DNA of 64,000 nucleotides from Felixounavirus LF110P1: the sequence record OZ035744.1; one strand, written 5' to 3'. Every line of letters starts with the position of its first letter. Within the stretch, counting starts at the first letter, position 1. The notes beneath the pieces were generated by a model. The model had not been told where the DNA came from. It saw only the letters and a list, made by a program, of their open reading frames with translations, and did not search any database. This document shows positions 8,192-52,637 of the stretch, piece by piece. The position numbers and the translations under genes were made by a program.

Positions 8192-8765
8192 AAAAGGTCT
8201 AGTTAGAACCTTAGTGGATGTTATTGGTCACAGACTAGCTCGTGATAAAAATAATAGACCGAATGTAATTAGAGCTTACCCTTCTGATAACTCAAATGAC
8301 AAAGGTTTAAAACCTGACCAGCCATTTATTACCGTATATTGTCAAGATGCTGCAACACCTTATGGTTGGGTTCTTGATAAGTTTGTTGAGGATGATGTAG
8401 TTTGCTACAGAATTGCTTTTCAGATTCCAGTATTAATTACGGTGAATGGTAAAGGTGCTCACAGTATTATGCTTGAGCTTAAACAACGATTAGAGATGAG
8501 TTCAGTCAGGGATTTAATTCTTGAAGAGACAGGAGCTACAGTACTAGACACTGGAGCCATCCCAAATGACTACACTTATCTCAATACAGATTTCGAAAAT
8601 TCTGCGCCTCTTGTTGTAACTCTTGTAAAAAATTCAGTCCTGAAAGATGAACGTGGAAGTATTATTGAGCGTGTCATTGTTGATGGTGAGTTGGTTTATG
8701 AAGAAGGACAAGAGCCACCAGAATATACTATCCATCTAGATGTAGACTCCAAAGGGGTAAAATAA
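8166..8765 (+). CDS. Tail completion/terminator protein (putative)
   Basis: 199 aa, position immediately before the sheath candidate. Confidence 0.35.
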   Translation: MQLETAELEKGLVRTLVDVIGHRLARDKNNRPNVIRAYPSDNSNDKGLKPDQPFITVYCQDAATPYGWVLDKFVEDDVVCYRIAFQIPVLITVNGKGAHSIMLELKQRLEMSSVRDLILEETGATVLDTGAIPNDYTYLNTDFENSAPLVVTLVKNSVLKDERGSIIERVIVDGELVYEEGQEPPEYTIHLDVDSKGVK

Positions 8766-10118
8766 ATGTGGAATCCAATTGTTAATGTAGATATTACATT
8801 GAACACCGCAGGAACTACAAGAGAAGGTTTTGGTTTGCCACTATTCTTAGCTTCAACAGATAACTTTGAAGAAAGAGTCCGTGGTTATACTTCCTTAACT
8901 GAAGTTGCTGAAGATTTCGATGAAAACTCTGCTGCATATAAGGCTGCTAAACAACTTTGGAGTCAGACTCCTAAAGTAACTCAGCTTTATATTGGTAGAC
9001 GTGCTATGCAGTACACTGTATCAATTCCTAATGCTGTTACTGAAAGTACAGACTACTCAATTACTGTAGCTGCTGGCGGTGGAATTTCTCAACCATACCA
9101 GTACACAGCAGTGGAATCAGACACTGCTGAGAAAGTTTTGCAACAGTTTAAAACACAGATTGAAGCTGACCCAACAATCAAAGATAAGGTTTCTGTGAAC
9201 GTAACTGGTAGCAATGGCTCTGCCACAATGATTATTACCAAAGCTGGTGATAATGACTTTGTGAAAGTAACAACCACAGCACAGACTGTGTATATTGCAA
9301 GTACAACTGCCGATACAGCATCAACTGCTCTGGCAGCTATCGAAGCTTACTCTACTGACTGGTATTTCATTGCAGCAGAAGACAGAACTCAACAGTTTGT
9401 CTTAGCAATGGCTTCTGAGATTCAGGCTCGCAAGAAAATCTTCTTTACAGCTAACTCCGATGTAACAGCCCTGCAAGGTACAGAATTAGCCAGTGCAAAT
9501 GATGTTCCAGCACAGCTTGCTAAGAGTATGTACACTCGTACAGTTTGCTTGTGGCATCACGCAGCAGCAGAAGACTATCCAGAGATGGCATACATTGCTT
9601 ATGGTGCTCCATATGATGCAGGTTCAATTGCTTGGGGTAATGCTCAGCTAACTGGTGTAGCAGCTTCTCTACAACCATCTAATCAGAGACCTCTGACAAG
9701 TATTCAGAAGTCTGCTTTAGATGTACGTCACTGTAACTTTATTGACCTTGATGGTGGTGTTCCAGTGGTTCGTAGAGGGATTACTTCTGGTGGGGAATGG
9801 ATTGATATCGTCCGTGGTGTTGACTGGTTAGAATCAGACCTGAAAACTTCTCTGAGAGACTTGCTAATTAACCAGAAGGGTGGTAAGATTACTTATGATG
9901 ATACTGGTATTACACGTATTCGTCAAGTCATTGAAACCTCTCTACAAAGAGCAGTCAACAGAAACTTCCTGTCATCTTACACAGTTAATGTTCCTAAAGC
10001 CTCTCAAGTTGCTTTGGCAGACAAGAAAGCTCGTATCCTGAAAGATGTTACCTTCGCAGGTATCTTAGCAGGGGCTATCTTGGATGTTGACTTGAAAGGT
10101 ACAGTGGCTTACGAATAA
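8766..10118 (+). CDS. Tail sheath protein (putative)
   Basis: 450 aa ORF followed by a 148 aa ORF, two chaperone-like ORFs and the tape measure: the usual contractile-tail gene order. Confidence 0.5.
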   Translation: MWNPIVNVDITLNTAGTTREGFGLPLFLASTDNFEERVRGYTSLTEVAEDFDENSAAYKAAKQLWSQTPKVTQLYIGRRAMQYTVSIPNAVTESTDYSITVAAGGGISQPYQYTAVESDTAEKVLQQFKTQIEADPTIKDKVSVNVTGSNGSATMIITKAGDNDFVKVTTTAQTVYIASTTADTASTALAAIEAYSTDWYFIAAEDRTQQFVLAMASEIQARKKIFFTANSDVTALQGTELASANDVPAQLAKSMYTRTVCLWHHAAAEDYPEMAYIAYGAPYDAGSIAWGNAQLTGVAASLQPSNQRPLTSIQKSALDVRHCNFIDLDGGVPVVRRGITSGGEWIDIVRGVDWLESDLKTSLRDLLINQKGGKITYDDTGITRIRQVIETSLQRAVNRNFLSSYTVNVPKASQVALADKKARILKDVTFAGILAGAILDVDLKGTVAYE

Positions 10119-10133
10119 TAGAGGTAAATTGGA

Positions 10134-10580
10134 ATGGCTATGTATCAGCAATATTCCCCTAAAGACGTTGTATGTAGCTGGAATGGTATTGCCATTGAAG
10201 GCTTTGCCCCAGATTCATTCTTGCGTCTACAGAGAACATCACCGCTTGTGACACCAGTTGTTGGTGCAGGTGGTCAAGTTGCTCTGACAAGAAATGCAGA
10301 CAAGACAGGTACTATTGAGATTGAGTTAATGCAGACTTCTCTCTCTAACCAGATGCTTTCTGCAATTCAAGCTAAACAAGACAATATGGAACTTGAAGAA
10401 GATATCTCTTCTAACTTCGTAATCTACGACCCATCAGGCTCTGTTCTGGCAACTGGTATTAATGCTTGGTTGCAGGAATTACCACAGATTGAACTTGGTC
10501 GTGACCAGAACTCTAAAACTTGGATTTTTGGTTGTGAGAAGCTAGACTACACTTCTACAATTCCAGCGTCAAGTGTTTAA
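10134..10580 (+). CDS. Tail tube protein (putative)
   Basis: 148 aa; followed by a strong hairpin plus T-run terminator. Confidence 0.5.
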   Translation: MAMYQQYSPKDVVCSWNGIAIEGFAPDSFLRLQRTSPLVTPVVGAGGQVALTRNADKTGTIEIELMQTSLSNQMLSAIQAKQDNMELEEDISSNFVIYDPSGSVLATGINAWLQELPQIELGRDQNSKTWIFGCEKLDYTSTIPASSV

Positions 10581-10592
10581 TAAATCCTATAA

Positions 10593-10626
10593 GGGGGAGA
10601 CTTTAAAAGGTCTTCCCCTTTTTTGT
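10593..10626 (+). terminator. Rho-independent terminator after the tube gene
   Basis: GGGGGAGAC ... GTCTTCCCC stem followed by TTTTTTGTTT. Confidence 0.6.
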
Positions 10627-10653
10627 TTCTTTTAAAAGTATTAAGGAATCACA

Positions 10654-11052
10654 ATGAAAACAGAATCTAGAGTAATTAATGGTAAGAAAGTAAATATCGT
10701 TCTGCTTGGGGCAAGAGATGGTATTAAGATGTCTATGAAGTTGGGTAAAATTGTTGTTCCAACCTTTGCACAGATGCTATCAAGTCTGACTGACAAGGGT
10801 AAGAAGGAAGCTCCAATGGTTCCATTTAAAGAACTTGTTGAAGCTTGTTTTGACAGAATTGAAGAAATTAACCTTGAAGAGATGGCTACCTTATTATTTC
10901 AAGGGGCAACTGTTGACGACTTCCCACTTAATATTGATACGTACTTCCAAGCAAACTACGGTGAGTTTATTGATTACTTAGCATTTGCGCTGGAGGCAAA
11001 CTTCGGAAGTTTTTTCGAAGCAAGCATTTTCAAAAGCCTAACTTCTCAGTAA
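10654..11052 (+). CDS. Tail assembly chaperone (G-like)
   Basis: 132 aa ORF directly upstream of the tape measure; contains slippery heptamer near its 3' end. Confidence 0.55.
   Translation: MKTESRVINGKKVNIVLLGARDGIKMSMKLGKIVVPTFAQMLSSLTDKGKKEAPMVPFKELVEACFDRIEEINLEEMATLLFQGATVDDFPLNIDTYFQANYGEFIDYLAFALEANFGSFFEASIFKSLTSQ
11010..11016 (+). other. Candidate -1 programmed ribosomal frameshift site (slippery heptamer T TTT TTC)
   Basis: Heptamer sits in the zero frame as agT TTT TTC, 12 codons before the stop; a -1 slip reads through into the 11055..11294 ORF. Confidence 0.5.
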
Positions 11053-11054
11053 AC

Positions 11055-11293
11055 ATGGGTAACACTCTACAGACACCACTAACTGATGCTGCTGTAGAGG
11101 CAACCTATGAAGAAGCAGACGAGATGAAATTTGTGCTTGCTATTTATGGTATGGAAGGGTGTAAAGAAACACTTGACCAACTCTTTGCTATGACATTCTC
11201 TGATTTATTATCATTGAGACAATTTCTTGAAATTCAGAGGTCGTATAAAGAGGAAATTGCTTACAACGAACTTAGAAGAGCAGGAAAAATGTA

Positions 11294-11294
<1 letters not shown>
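11055..11294 (+). CDS. Tail assembly chaperone frameshift extension (GT-like)
   Basis: 79 aa ORF in the -1 frame relative to the upstream chaperone ORF, ends at the tape measure start. Confidence 0.45.
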
Positions 11295-19313
<8,019 letters not shown>

Positions 19314-51469: not shown

Positions 51470-51740
51470 AGAAAAGTGGGAGATTTTACCATTAGTCAGT
51501 GAAGGTGGTAATGGTTGTGAGATGTACATGATACGTGGTCATGTTCCAGAACCAATTGCGCTTGAGATGGTAAACAACTTTACAGATGGTTCTTACAAAG
51601 ACTTAGGAGAGCCAACTATAAAGCATCAATGGGTAAAGCCTGTACCAGACAGCACAGGTAACTGTAGTGTACTTTACCACGTTGTAGACCCTGTAAAATG
51701 CAAATCTGCAATGGCAGTAACAAACGTAACCTTTGATTGA
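51462..51740 (+). CDS. Hypothetical protein
   Basis: 92 aa. Confidence 0.3.
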   Translation: MAKEKWEILPLVSEGGNGCEMYMIRGHVPEPIALEMVNNFTDGSYKDLGEPTIKHQWVKPVPDSTGNCSVLYHVVDPVKCKSAMAVTNVTFD

Positions 51741-51755
51741 GATAGAGAGAAAACT

Positions 51756-52637
51756 ATGAAAACTGTTATTGAAGCCGTCATCACCGCACAAGAGAAATTC
51801 TTCCACACAGAAAAATTTAACATCATCCAATTCCCATCTGGAGAAATTGGTGGAAACTTCTCTGAAGATTTTGTTAAGTTTGCTGAGCGTAATGCTGGTA
51901 AGATTGATAATGTTATATTTACTGTACAGGGGTATGACAAAGATACACTGTTTGCATTAGCTTTGGCTAAGGATGCCGTTGACAGTCTTGTTCCCCAGAA
52001 ATCAGCGATGAAAACCGTTGTTTTCGGGTTCTTACCAAATGCTCGATATGACCGCCACATGTTCAAAGGTGATGCAGCAGCACTGAAAGTCTTTGCCAAC
52101 CTCGTTAATGCAATGGGTTTTGATGCAGTATGTGCTCTTGACCCTCACAGTAATGTTGCAGAAAACTTATTTAAGTGTTTTCAGAGCATGAAGCAAAAAG
52201 ATGTGGCAGTACACTTTGCAAGTGACCCACGCATTGATTTCTTAGTAGCCCCAGATGCAGGTGCAGCTAAGAAGACTGAAGATGCCGCTAAAGAGGTGGA
52301 TAAACCATATATCACAATGTCTAAAGTGCGTAACCTTAAGACTGGTGAAATTACTGGTATGCGAATCCTTGATGATGTTGATTTGACAGATAAAACCGTC
52401 ATGATTCTGGATGATATTTGTGATGGTGGGCGAACCTTCATAGAGGCAGCTAAACATCTTCGTGAAGCAGGTGCAAAACGTGTGGAACTCTATGTAACTC
52501 ATGGTATTTTCTCTAAAGGTGTTGAAAACTTACTTGACAATGGTATTGACCATATCTACACTACAAACTCTTTGGGTGAAGCTAAAGACCGTGGCTTAAC
52601 ACATTACGCCCAAGTTACTGTAGTAACTATTGATTGA
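51756..52637 (+). CDS. Ribose-phosphate pyrophosphokinase (Prs) family protein; could be canonical PRPP synthetase or an ADP-ribose pyrophosphokinase (Adps-like)
   Basis: PRPP-binding signature VMILDDICDGGRTF, plus FGFLPNARYDRH and LDPHS blocks aligning with Prs FGYARQDRR and DLHA. Confidence 0.8.
   Translation: MKTVIEAVITAQEKFFHTEKFNIIQFPSGEIGGNFSEDFVKFAERNAGKIDNVIFTVQGYDKDTLFALALAKDAVDSLVPQKSAMKTVVFGFLPNARYDRHMFKGDAAALKVFANLVNAMGFDAVCALDPHSNVAENLFKCFQSMKQKDVAVHFASDPRIDFLVAPDAGAAKKTEDAAKEVDKPYITMSKVRNLKTGEITGMRILDDVDLTDKTVMILDDICDGGRTFIEAAKHLREAGAKRVELYVTHGIFSKGVENLLDNGIDHIYTTNSLGEAKDRGLTHYAQVTVVTID

What the first reader, a model, noticed from the sequence alone, without database searches (positions are those of the whole stretch)
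10654..11294. Candidate -1 programmed frameshift (T TTT TTC) joining the two tail chaperone ORFs
The heptamer at 11010-11016 is a canonical X XXY YYZ slippery site in the zero frame of the upstream ORF, and a -1 slip reads without a stop into the downstream 79-aa ORF. This is the conserved G/GT chaperone arrangement upstream of tape measure genes.
Basis: partly seen in the sequence, partly recalled or inferred. Interest (0 to 1): 0.45.

Follow-up and report, generated by a model that had tools for sequence, protein, structure and literature searches.

The report
Tail chaperone frameshift site, Felix O1-like phage
The window comes from a Felix O1-like phage, and the flagged T TTT TTC is a real, strongly conserved -1 ribosomal frameshift site that joins the two tail-assembly chaperone reading frames; this is the ordinary "G/GT" arrangement of tailed phages and is already annotated in sister phages.

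Summary
The observation and the interpretation both hold. The window is a Felixounavirus (98% identical to many Felix O1-like phages). ORF1 (10654-11052) is a Pfam Phage_TAC_15 tail assembly chaperone. It lies between the sheath and tube genes and the tape measure gene.

T_TTT_TTC at 11010-11016 is the only in-frame X_XXY_YYZ heptamer in ORF1. A -1 slip there gives a 213-aa G-T fusion ending at 11294.

Among 33 sequence clusters of relatives (down to about 25% protein identity, including Vequintavirinae and GC-rich metagenomic contigs), 33 of 33 keep T_TTT_TT[C/T] at the conserved S/C-F-F motif. Codon usage predicts 6.1. All 33 have a 76-124-codon -1 extension, which in about 30 ends at a long downstream ORF.

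Most relatives have no ATG near the start of the T frame. In the window, the ATG at 11055 has no Shine-Dalgarno sequence.

No 3' stimulatory structure is predicted in the window. A GGAGG lies 13 nt upstream of the heptamer, and GAGG is kept there in 28 of 33 clusters (9.5 expected). It is a candidate 5' stimulator.

The orthologous frameshift is already annotated or published for the Mooglevirus phages Michonne, Moogle and Mijalis. Nothing has been shown experimentally in this lineage. The finding is ordinary and of low interest.

The parts
8766..10118 (+). Tail sheath gene (context)
   Evidence: phrog_205 tail sheath, E=5e-123; Pfam DUF3383. Annotated as tail sheath in the Felix O1 RefSeq record.
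10134..10580 (+). Tail tube / virion structural protein gene (context)
   Evidence: Pfam KPP10_Orf10 and phrog_280. This is Gp64 of Felix O1, detected in virions (PMC3185647).
10591..10620 (+). Terminator-like hairpin (13 bp, then TTTTTGTTTCT) between the tube gene and the chaperone gene
   Evidence: The same position is annotated 'terminator' in Michonne. It probably lowers transcription of the chaperone and tape measure genes relative to the tube gene (inference).
10654..11052 (+). Zero-frame chaperone gene 'G' (132 aa, 14.8 kDa)
   Evidence: Pfam PF21822 Phage_TAC_15, E=1.7e-19; phrog_1613, E=2.9e-48. Its start has a Shine-Dalgarno-like AAGGA, with an anti-SD duplex of -6.1 kcal/mol.
10992..10996 (+). 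Internal Shine-Dalgarno-like GGAGG, 13 nt upstream of the heptamer; candidate 5' frameshift stimulator
   Evidence: The anti-SD duplex is -9.3 kcal/mol, stronger than at the 11 neighbouring gene starts tested. GAGG is kept at this spacing in 28 of 33 clusters, against 9.5-12.9 expected. The position is invariant in 35 Felixounavirus/Mooglevirus sequences, with reduced synonymous variation. It fits the 6-17 nt criterion of PMC4066793.
11010..11016 (+). Slippery heptamer T_TTT_TTC (X_XXY_YYZ in the ORF1 frame)
   Evidence: Invariant in 35 close relatives. T_TTT_TT[C/T] is present in 80 of 80 IMG/VR loci and in 33 of 33 clusters. H_HH.U_UU.Y is among the most efficient heptamer classes in E. coli (PMC4066793).
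11016..11052 (+). Dual-coding overlap: G C-terminal tail (EASIFKSLTSQ) in frame 0 and the start of the T part (RSKHFQKPNFSV) in frame -1
   Evidence: Third-position diversity drops from 0.14-0.36 to 0.037 and then 0.000. The blastn match of 41 nt (10999-11039, spanning the heptamer and the first part of this overlap) is the only nucleotide-level match to Kolesnikvirus phages, at 92.7%.
11016..11294 (+). -1 frame 'T' segment (92 codons plus stop), expressed as the C-terminal part of the G-T fusion: join(10654..11016,11016..11294), 213 aa, 24.2 kDa
   Evidence: phrog_4963 tail assembly chaperone, E=2.8e-55. Homologous -1 extensions of 76-124 codons occur in all relatives.
11055..11057 (+). ATG used as the ORF2 start in most database records; probably not a significant initiation site
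   Evidence: No SD: anti-SD duplex +0.2 kcal/mol, against -5.1 to -7.9 at neighbouring gene starts. It reads ATA in Felixounavirus contig L015. No ATG lies near this position in most clusters.
11294..13522 (+). Tape measure protein gene; its start overlaps the stop of the T frame (ATGTAATGG)
   Evidence: Pfam TMP_3; phrog_4036, 1525 bits.

Best explanation
This is a programmed -1 ribosomal frameshift site in the tail assembly chaperone gene of a Felix O1-like myophage.

Most ribosomes translate ORF1 to its stop at 11050-11052 and make the 132-aa chaperone G. A minority do something different when tRNA-Phe occupies UUU (11011-13) in the P site and UUC (11014-16) in the A site. Both tRNAs slip back one base and re-pair with UUU/UUU. 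Translation then continues in the -1 frame to 11294 and produces a 213-aa G-T fusion. The fusion shares residues 1-121 with G and carries a 92-residue T domain.

By analogy with lambda gpG/gpGT and P2 E/E+E', both proteins would coat the tape measure protein through the G part, and the T part would recruit the tube protein. Neither protein would end up in the virion.

Stimulation in this phage probably comes from an internal GGAGG 13 nt upstream pairing with the 16S rRNA tail, not from a 3' hairpin.

What is shown: the sequence anatomy, the homology, the synteny and the conservation. What is inferred: that the shift actually occurs, its efficiency, the role of the GGAGG, and the binding partners.
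For: Anatomy:
- The heptamer is in phase, the -1 frame is open, and it is the only in-frame heptamer in ORF1.

Identity and synteny:
- The window is 98% identical to Felixounavirus genomes.
- TAC, sheath, tube and tape measure family hits support the gene assignments.

Conservation:
- The same TTTTTTC, with a 92-124-codon -1 extension, occurs in Felix O1, Michonne, phiEa21-4, Yersinia phage P778, Arno162, Av-05, CR3 and phiTE.
- 80 of 80 IMG/VR loci carry it.
- 33 of 33 clusters carry heptamer-compatible synonymous codons, against 6.1 expected. This includes GC-rich contigs in which TTT accounts for only about 15-30% of Phe codons.
- In about 30 of 33 clusters the -1 ORF ends within -28 to +65 nt of a long ORF.

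The T part cannot be made alone in most relatives:
- The first in-frame ATG is at codon 35 or later in most clusters. The T frame of phiEa21-4 is unannotated, and phiEa104 carries only a 37-aa stub.
- ATG 11055 lacks an SD and reads ATA in L015.

Both frames are constrained in the overlap.

Stimulators:
- GGAGG lies at the right spacing, GAGG is kept in 28 of 33 clusters against 9.5 expected, and synonymous variation is reduced upstream of the heptamer, P=0.004.
- The spacing and motif meet the criteria of PMC4066793, which also places H_HH.U_UU.Y among the best E. coli heptamers.
- GC-rich relatives have a 7-13-bp hairpin 3-7 nt downstream (L073 -26.6 kcal/mol, z -3.1).

Literature:
- 'Ribosomal slippage' is annotated at the orthologous site in Michonne, and the frameshift is reported for Moogle and Mijalis (PMC4319497, PMC5543628).
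- P2 E/E+E' uses TTTTTTG without a 3' structure (PMC3091744).
- Felix O1 virion proteomics found Gp63, Gp64 and Gp67 but not Gp65 or Gp66 (PMC3185647), as expected for chaperones.
Against: - No protein, reporter or ribosome-profiling data exist for any Felix O1-like phage, so the frameshift is inferred only.
- No significant RNA structure follows the heptamer in this window (-3.4 kcal/mol, z +1.17).
- The SD-like element is missing in 5 of 33 clusters, including Kolesnikvirus, so it is not essential.
- The 33 clusters are not phylogenetically independent, so the quoted P values are too small. The loci were also retrieved with a peptide pattern that includes S/C-F-F, so conservation of the amino-acid motif itself is partly by selection. 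The codon-level tests are not affected by this.
- In Felixounavirus and Mooglevirus an in-frame ATG follows the ORF1 stop closely, so some free T protein cannot be excluded.
- Most database records annotate two separate genes.
Confidence: 0.9

Rival explanations
1. ORF1 and ORF2 are two separate genes. ORF2 is translated on its own from ATG 11055, by termination-reinitiation coupling two bases after the ORF1 stop (TAAacATG). The heptamer is then only the codons for a conserved Ser-Phe-Phe motif.
For: An in-frame ATG lies 2 nt after the ORF1 stop. Most GenBank and RefSeq Felixounavirus records annotate two CDSs. Of the 40 members read from the 183-member protein cluster, every one is 132 or 79 aa except CL1. 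Phe-Phe is conserved at the protein level.
Against: - No SD precedes the ATG: +0.2 kcal/mol, against -5.1 to -7.9 at 11 neighbouring gene starts.
- The ATG reads ATA in a Felixounavirus contig.
- No ATG lies near the start of the conserved T domain in most of the 33 clusters, and the T frame of phiEa21-4 has no usable start.
- Synonymous choice at S/C-F-F is heptamer-compatible in 33 of 33 clusters, against 6.1 expected. Protein conservation alone does not explain this.
- The -1 frame peptide between the heptamer and the ATG (R.K.FQKP) is conserved.
Confidence: 0.04
2. Both routes operate in Felixounavirus: the G-T fusion is made by frameshifting, and some free 79-aa T protein is made by reinitiation at ATG 11055.
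For: The ATG is kept in nearly all Felixounavirus sequences sampled, and an ATG at a nearby but different position is present in Mooglevirus. The stop-start distance of 2 nt is typical of coupling.
Against: There is no SD. The ATG is dispensable in L015 and absent in other genera. A predicted hairpin at 11054-11109 includes the ATG. No known G/GT system needs free T (established knowledge; not tested here).
Confidence: 0.1
3. The fusion arises by transcriptional slippage. RNA polymerase adds one extra U in the T6 run, and normal translation of that mRNA gives the same G-T protein.
For: The site is a homopolymer run. 8 of 33 clusters have T7. A DNA version with 7 T (phage CL1) encodes exactly the fused protein. 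The protein product would be identical, so mass spectrometry cannot tell the two mechanisms apart.
Against: Productive slippage by bacterial RNA polymerase is described for runs of about 9 A or T (PMC5009743), and this run has 6. The conserved upstream SD-like element and the 3' hairpins at a 3-7 nt spacer in GC-rich relatives are signals that act on ribosomes. The run is never extended beyond 7 even though TTT TTT TTx would be easy to encode.
Confidence: 0.04
4. The shift takes place partly or wholly at the second shift-prone site, the tetramer T_TTC at 11028-11031 (ATT TTC in frame 0). That site leads into the same -1 frame and gives ...FFEASIF-QKPNF....
For: U_UU.C is the second most shift-prone tetramer in E. 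coli (PMC4066793). The sequence is conserved in Felixounavirus, Mooglevirus and Kolesnikvirus.
Against: Tetramers are about 10-fold weaker than good heptamers (PMC4066793). This tetramer is absent from most of the 33 clusters, whereas the heptamer is universal. Its local conservation is explained by dual coding.
Confidence: 0.03

Closest known systems
Annotated chaperone frameshift of the Felix O1-like Mooglevirus phages Michonne, Moogle and Mijalis (NC_028247 'ribosomal slippage'; PMC4319497, PMC5543628)
   Same: These are orthologous genes: about 80% nucleotide and 70-75% protein identity. They have the identical heptamer TTTTTTC at the same codon, the same GGAGG upstream, the same downstream 33 nt apart from one base, and the same sheath-tube-terminator-chaperone-tape measure order.
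   Different: They belong to a different genus. ORF1 runs 2-3 codons further, and the in-frame ATG of the T frame sits 4-5 codons later. In the genus Felixounavirus the records sampled annotate two separate genes, not a join. In both genera the frameshift is a prediction only.
Phage P2 E / E+E' (-1 frameshift at TTTTTTG, between tail tube gene FII and tape measure gene T)
   Same: Both are contractile-tailed phages, and both have a U6-type heptamer. The chaperone pair lies between the tube and tape measure genes, and no 3' structure is predicted (PMC3091744, citing Christie 2002 and Xu 2004).
   Different: No detectable sequence homology was found or sought here. The last base of the heptamer is G in P2, so the A site holds tRNA-Leu on UUG, whereas here it holds tRNA-Phe on UUC. 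P2 E is 91 aa and E+E' is 142 aa, against 132 and 213 aa here. The P2 frameshift was shown experimentally.
Phage lambda gpG / gpGT (the founding example; conserved across dsDNA tailed phages, Xu, Hendrix and Duda 2004)
   Same: The logic is the same. There are two overlapping ORFs just upstream of the tape measure gene, a -1 slip occurs near the end of the first, the fusion is the minor product, and the chaperones are absent from virions (PMC5009743, Figure 4 legend).
   Different: Lambda is a siphophage with the heptamer G_GGA_AAG (from memory) and an unrelated protein sequence. The function of its G and T parts has been shown biochemically, whereas here it is only inferred.
E. coli dnaX and IS911/IS3-type -1 frameshift signals with a 5' Shine-Dalgarno-like stimulator
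   Same: [quoted passage not shown] It is conserved against codon-usage expectation.
   Different: dnaX and the IS elements also use a 3' hairpin or pseudoknot and A_AAA_AAG. This phage has no predicted 3' element. The function of the SD-like element here is untested.

Membership tests
G/GT-type tail assembly chaperone -1 frameshift (Xu, Hendrix and Duda 2004) | The gene pair lies between the major tail (tube) gene and the tape measure gene | tested here: met
   The order is sheath 8766-10118, tube 10134-10580, chaperone ORFs 10654-11294, tape measure 11294-13522.
G/GT-type tail assembly chaperone -1 frameshift (Xu, Hendrix and Duda 2004) | The second ORF is in the -1 frame relative to the first and overlaps its 3' end | tested here: met
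   The -1 frame is open from 10974 to 11294, and the ORF1 stop is at 11050-11052.
G/GT-type tail assembly chaperone -1 frameshift (Xu, Hendrix and Duda 2004) | A slippery sequence lies in the zero frame within the overlap | tested here: met
   T_TTT_TTC at 11010-11016 is the only in-frame X_XXY_YYZ in ORF1.
G/GT-type tail assembly chaperone -1 frameshift (Xu, Hendrix and Duda 2004) | The slippery site and two-frame architecture are conserved among diverged relatives | tested here: met
   33 of 33 clusters and 80 of 80 loci keep it, across Ounavirinae, Vequintavirinae and metagenomic contigs.
G/GT-type tail assembly chaperone -1 frameshift (Xu, Hendrix and Duda 2004) | The downstream ORF lacks its own translation initiation signals | tested here: met
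   There is no SD before ATG 11055. The ATG is not conserved. An ATG does exist in this genus, so independent initiation is unlikely but not impossible.
G/GT-type tail assembly chaperone -1 frameshift (Xu, Hendrix and Duda 2004) | Two proteins with a common N-terminus are made in a fixed ratio, and both are needed for tail assembly | not testable with these tools
   This needs a western blot or mass spectrometry, plus genetics. No such data were found for Felix O1-like phages.
G/GT-type tail assembly chaperone -1 frameshift (Xu, Hendrix and Duda 2004) | The chaperones are absent from mature virions | not testable with these tools
   Published evidence is consistent with this. Felix O1 virion proteomics lists Gp63, Gp64, Gp67 and others, but not Gp65 or Gp66 (PMC3185647).
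Pfam PF21822 Phage_TAC_15 (tail assembly chaperone) | The score is above the family's gathering threshold over most of the model | tested here: met
   71 bits against a cut-off of 22, E=1.7e-19, covering model positions 1-124 of 127. Also phrog_1613, E=2.9e-48.
5' SD-stimulated -1 frameshift signals (dnaX / IS911 type) | [quoted passage not shown] | tested here: met
   GGAGG at 10992-10996 is separated by 14 nt from base 11011. The anti-SD duplex is -9.3 kcal/mol. The criterion comes from PMC4066793.
5' SD-stimulated -1 frameshift signals (dnaX / IS911 type) | The SD-like element is conserved beyond what coding requires | tested here: met
   GAG, not GAA, is used in 28 of 33 clusters, against 9.5 expected in the same context. 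The element is absent in 5 clusters.
5' SD-stimulated -1 frameshift signals (dnaX / IS911 type) | Mutating the SD-like element lowers frameshift efficiency | not testable with these tools
   This needs a reporter assay.
Canonical heptamer plus 3' hairpin or pseudoknot signal | A stable structure starts 5-9 nt downstream of the heptamer | tested here: not met
   Window 11017-11076 folds at -3.4 kcal/mol, z +1.17. The nearest sizeable hairpin starts 38 nt downstream of the heptamer. The feature is met in the GC-rich relatives L050, L061 and L073.
Programmed transcriptional slippage | A homopolymer run of about 9 or more A/T | tested here: not met
   The run is 6 T in the window and at most 7 in relatives. 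The threshold is taken from PMC5009743.

The most novel reading that the evidence does not exclude
In this large chaperone family (Ounavirinae, Vequintavirinae and many uncultured relatives), the tail-chaperone frameshift may be driven mainly by a conserved internal Shine-Dalgarno-like GAGG/GGAGG placed 13 nt 5' of U_UUU_UUY. A 3' hairpin would be added only in GC-rich lineages. That would make it a family-wide, dnaX/IS911-style 5' rRNA-pairing stimulator for a phage G/GT signal, a class usually described as having no stimulator.
Probability: 0.4. Interest if true: 0.35.

Novelty: already known. Interest (0 to 1): 0.15.

Why it matters
The practical value is for annotation. Every one of the sampled Felixounavirus records that annotates this region, including the Felix O1 RefSeq record, lists two separate chaperone genes. 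Some records call ORF2 a 'head closure protein', and one carries a fused CDS. The evidence instead supports one gene with a -1 frameshift product: join(10654..11016,11016..11294).

Scientifically this is one more example of the universal G/GT strategy that sets the chaperone ratio for tail-length determination. The only slightly new point is the conserved upstream SD-like element. If it is functional, it would explain how a frameshift signal without a 3' structure reaches a useful efficiency in these AT-rich phages.

Tried and rejected
- **3' stimulatory structure.** I folded 60 and 100 nt downstream of the heptamer and found nothing significant within 37 nt. The hairpin at 11054-11109 (z -2.2 for the 100-nt fold) is too far away to act on a ribosome at the slip site. 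Only a 9-bp inner part is kept in other genera, with 2 compensatory pairs and a consensus energy of -4.8 kcal/mol. I rejected it as a stimulator.
- **Local hairpin around the heptamer.** A hairpin at 11001-11020 encloses the heptamer, but the fold is not better than shuffles (z -0.29) and it is not conserved outside close relatives.
- **First synonymous-diversity profile.** Its sequences were selected with a regular expression that covered the very region under test, so I discarded it. I repeated the analysis with blastn-selected sequences.
- **Rfam and tRNA scans.** Neither found anything in the window.
- **Solved structures.** A PDB sequence search with the fusion protein found no relative.
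- **Literature.** I looked for experimental proof in Felix O1-like phages, in the Felix O1 genome paper, the Bas63 cryo-EM paper and the PhageMaP preprint. None mentions the chaperone frameshift.
- **The other long -1 extension.** It lies at window 51674-52099 on the minus strand, in an antisense shadow ORF inside a plus-strand gene.
- **Not attempted.** I did not run structure prediction or the large protein-database searches, because the family assignment was already clear from Pfam and PHROGs.
Full report
**What the window is.** A megablast of 8700-13600 finds 250 phage records that cover at least 80% of the query. The best are 98% identical, and nearly all are Felixounavirus, the Felix O1-like myophages of Escherichia, Salmonella and Shigella. 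The window is therefore part of a Felix O1-like phage genome. No tRNA gene and no Rfam family is found in it.

**Checking the observation.**
- The sequence at 11010-11016 is TTTTTTC.
- ORF1 starts at 10654, so the local codons are AGT TTT TTC (S-F-F), and the heptamer is T_TTT_TTC in X_XXY_YYZ phase.
- The -1 frame is open from 10974 to the stop at 11292-11294 and is in phase with the ATG at 11055.
- Re-reading C11016 gives a 213-aa fusion (24.2 kDa) that shares residues 1-121 with the 132-aa ORF1 product (14.8 kDa).
- This is the only in-frame X_XXY_YYZ in ORF1.
- Over all ORFs of at least 100 aa in the window, such heptamers occur at 0.37% per codon, so 0.10 is expected in the 26-codon overlap. 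The only other heptamer with a long -1 extension lies in an antisense shadow ORF.

**Gene identities.**
- ORF1 matches Pfam PF21822 Phage_TAC_15 (71 bits against a cut-off of 22) and phrog_1613, both tail assembly chaperone families.
- ORF2 matches phrog_4963, also annotated as tail assembly chaperone.
- 8766-10118 is the sheath gene (phrog_205) and 10134-10580 the tube-type structural protein gene.
- 11294-13522 is the tape measure protein gene (Pfam TMP_3; phrog_4036), followed by a gene for a Dit-like protein.
- A 13-bp terminator-like hairpin with a T-run (10591-10620) separates the tube gene from the chaperone gene. The same element is annotated in Michonne.

**Comparative evidence.**

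The same heptamer sits at the same codon, with a 92-94-codon -1 extension ending at the tape measure gene, in:
- Felix O1;
- Citrobacter phage Michonne (Mooglevirus);
- Erwinia phage phiEa21-4 (Kolesnikvirus);
- Yersinia phage P778;
- Pectobacterium phage Arno162.

The Vequintavirinae phages Av-05, CR3 and phiTE also have it, with 123-124-codon extensions, although their chaperone is only 26-27% identical to the one in the window.

A scan of IMG/VR returned 80 loci. All 80 have T_TTT_TT[C/T] and a -1 extension of 76-123 codons. That scan used the peptide pattern E[AVK]N[FY][GSK][SC]FF, so the presence of S/C-F-F is partly by selection. The codon choice is not.

The sequences collapse to 33 clusters at 85% nucleotide identity. 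The heptamer needs a T-ending Ser or Cys codon followed by TTT. That combination is present in 33 of 33 clusters, against 6.1 expected from each locus's own codon usage. This holds even in contigs of 55-63% G+C, where TTT accounts for only about 15-30% of Phe codons. In about 30 of 33 clusters the -1 ORF ends within -28 to +65 nt of a long ORF of 317-750 aa.

**The T part is not an independent gene.**
- In most clusters the first in-frame ATG of the -1 extension is at codon 35 or later. That is well inside the conserved T domain.
- Annotators of phiEa21-4 left the T frame empty. The phiEa104 RefSeq record has only a 37-aa stub.
- Only Felixounavirus and Mooglevirus have an ATG soon after the ORF1 stop.
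- In the window that ATG (11055) has no Shine-Dalgarno sequence. Its anti-SD duplex is +0.2 kcal/mol, against -5.1 to -7.9 at 11 neighbouring gene starts.
- One Felixounavirus contig (L015) has ATA there.
- The -1 frame peptide between the heptamer and the ATG (RSKHFQKP...) is conserved across genera.
- The only nucleotide-level match between the window and Kolesnikvirus phages is 41 nt at 10999-11039, at 92.7% identity.
- Among 35 distinct Felixounavirus/Mooglevirus sequences chosen by blastn, third-position diversity in the ORF1 frame is 0.14-0.36 across 10654-10989. It falls to 0.046, 0.037 and 0.000 from 10990 to the stop. Downstream of the heptamer, this is what dual coding predicts.

**Stimulatory elements.**

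No structure better than shuffled controls is predicted in the 60 nt after the heptamer (-3.4 kcal/mol, z +1.17). P2 E/E+E', which uses TTTTTTG, also lacks a 3' structure (PMC3091744). GC-rich relatives do have a 7-13-bp hairpin starting 3-7 nt after the heptamer; L073, for example, folds at -26.6 kcal/mol with z -3.1.

Upstream, the window has GGAGG at 10992-10996, 13 nt before the heptamer. Four observations bear on it:
- Its duplex with the 16S rRNA 3' end is -9.3 kcal/mol, stronger than at the 11 neighbouring gene starts tested.
- The element arises from the codons xxG GAG Gxx. GAG, not GAA, is used in 28 of 33 clusters, against 12.9 expected from codon usage or 9.5 in the matched context GAR|G.
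- Synonymous diversity is already reduced over 10990-11009, where the -1 frame is not translated (0.062 against 0.231, P=0.004).
- Its motif and spacing meet the criterion for stimulatory SD-like elements used by Sharma et al. (PMC4066793).

That paper also ranks H_HH.U_UU.Y among the most efficient E. coli heptamers. I regard the 5' stimulator as plausible but untested. It is absent in 5 clusters, and the clusters are not independent.

**Mechanism proposed.** With tRNA-Phe on UUU in the P site and on UUC in the A site, both tRNAs slip back one base onto UUU/UUU, where they are still cognate. Translation then continues in the -1 frame. Pairing between the GGAGG and the anti-SD sequence would put tension on the mRNA or pause the ribosome at this point. 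G is the major product and G-T the minor one. By analogy with lambda and P2, the G part binds the tape measure protein, the T part recruits the tube protein, and both leave the finished tail (PMC5009743, Figure 4 legend). Felix O1 virion proteomics detected Gp63, Gp64 and Gp67 but not Gp65 or Gp66, which are these two ORFs (PMC3185647; one search gives the ORF numbers).

**Rivals.**
- *Independent translation of ORF2.* This is contradicted by the missing SD, the non-conserved ATG and the codon-level conservation of the heptamer. A small amount of free T by reinitiation in this genus cannot be excluded.
- *Transcriptional slippage.* It would give the same protein, but the run has only 6 T, whereas productive bacterial slippage is described for runs of about 9 (PMC5009743). 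The conserved flanking signals also act on ribosomes.
- *A second site.* The weak tetramer T_TTC at 11028-11031 could contribute a little.

**Comparison with what is known.** This is the G/GT arrangement of tailed phages. The orthologous site is annotated 'ribosomal slippage' in Citrobacter phage Michonne. A chaperone frameshift is also reported for the Felix O1-like phages Moogle and Mijalis (PMC4319497, PMC5543628). Within the genus Felixounavirus, the records I sampled annotate two separate genes. In the 90% protein cluster, the only 213-aa entry among the 40 members read is from phage CL1, whose record has 7 T at the site. The Felix O1 genome paper and the Bas63 cryo-EM paper do not mention a frameshift. 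No experimental demonstration exists for this lineage.

**Verdict.** The feature is of a known kind and already annotated in sister phages, so interest is low (0.15). I put confidence at about 0.9 that a -1 ribosomal frameshift at 11010-11016 produces a G-T fusion. For the upstream GGAGG being a functional stimulator, my confidence is about 0.4.

Noticed in passing
L007 (OK040806.1, Escherichia phage CL1) 1357-1363; equivalent to window 11010-11016: This record has TTTTTTT (7 T) at the slip site, so G and T are annotated as one 213-aa 'tape measure chaperone' CDS. It is either a homopolymer sequencing error or a natural fused-only variant. It is the only 213-aa entry among the 40 members read from its 183-member protein cluster.
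   Followed up: partly
L015 (IMGVR_UViG_3300045988_004167), equivalent to window 11055-11057: A Felixounavirus contig has ATA where the window has the ATG used as the ORF2 start. The nominal start codon is therefore dispensable within the genus.
   Followed up: partly
window 10992-10996: An internal GGAGG lies 13 nt upstream of the heptamer. GAGG is kept at this spacing in 28 of 33 clusters, against 9.5 expected. It is a candidate 5' stimulator.
   Followed up: yes
window 10591-10620: A strong terminator-like hairpin (13 bp plus a T-run) sits between the tube gene and the chaperone gene. It probably attenuates transcription into the chaperone and tape measure genes.
   Followed up: partly
window 11054-11109: A predicted hairpin includes ATG 11055 (the 100-nt fold gives -24.5 kcal/mol, z -2.2). 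Only an inner 9-bp part is kept in Mooglevirus and Kolesnikvirus, with two compensatory pairs. It is too far from the slip site to stimulate the shift, but it might mask the ATG.
   Followed up: partly
window 11028-11031: A second, weaker shift-prone motif, T_TTC (ATT TTC in frame 0), lies in the overlap and leads into the same -1 frame.
   Followed up: no
L005 (phiEa21-4) 2070-2305; L093 (phiEa104) 631-744: In Kolesnikvirus records the T frame is either unannotated or reduced to a 37-aa stub, because it has no usable start codon. These records need a frameshift join.
   Followed up: partly
GenBank MG065664.1 'Campylobacter phage A132' (H41); WP_252560994.1 from a Staphylococcus hyicus assembly (P0007): Felixounavirus sequence (98% identical over the query), or the identical chaperone protein, is filed under hosts that are implausible for this genus. 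Mislabelling or contamination is likely.
   Followed up: no
Records OQ871556/OQ871557 (SUT_S820/S920), OK040807 (C600M2), LR699048 (VpaE1_ev035): A 'head closure protein' is annotated under the chaperone region (ORF1 or ORF2) in these records; for SUT_S820 the name is attached to the 79-aa ORF2 homologue. This is an annotation error that is being propagated.
   Followed up: no
L050, L061, L073 and related GC-rich IMG/VR contigs, 3-7 nt after the heptamer: Distant GC-rich members of the same chaperone family carry a clear 7-13-bp hairpin at the canonical spacer, while AT-rich members do not. The type of stimulator appears to track genome composition.
   Followed up: partly
window 51674-52099 (- strand): An in-frame A_AAT_TTT with a 69-codon -1 extension occurs here, but the ORF is an antisense shadow of the plus-strand gene 51756-52637. 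It is spurious.
   Followed up: yes
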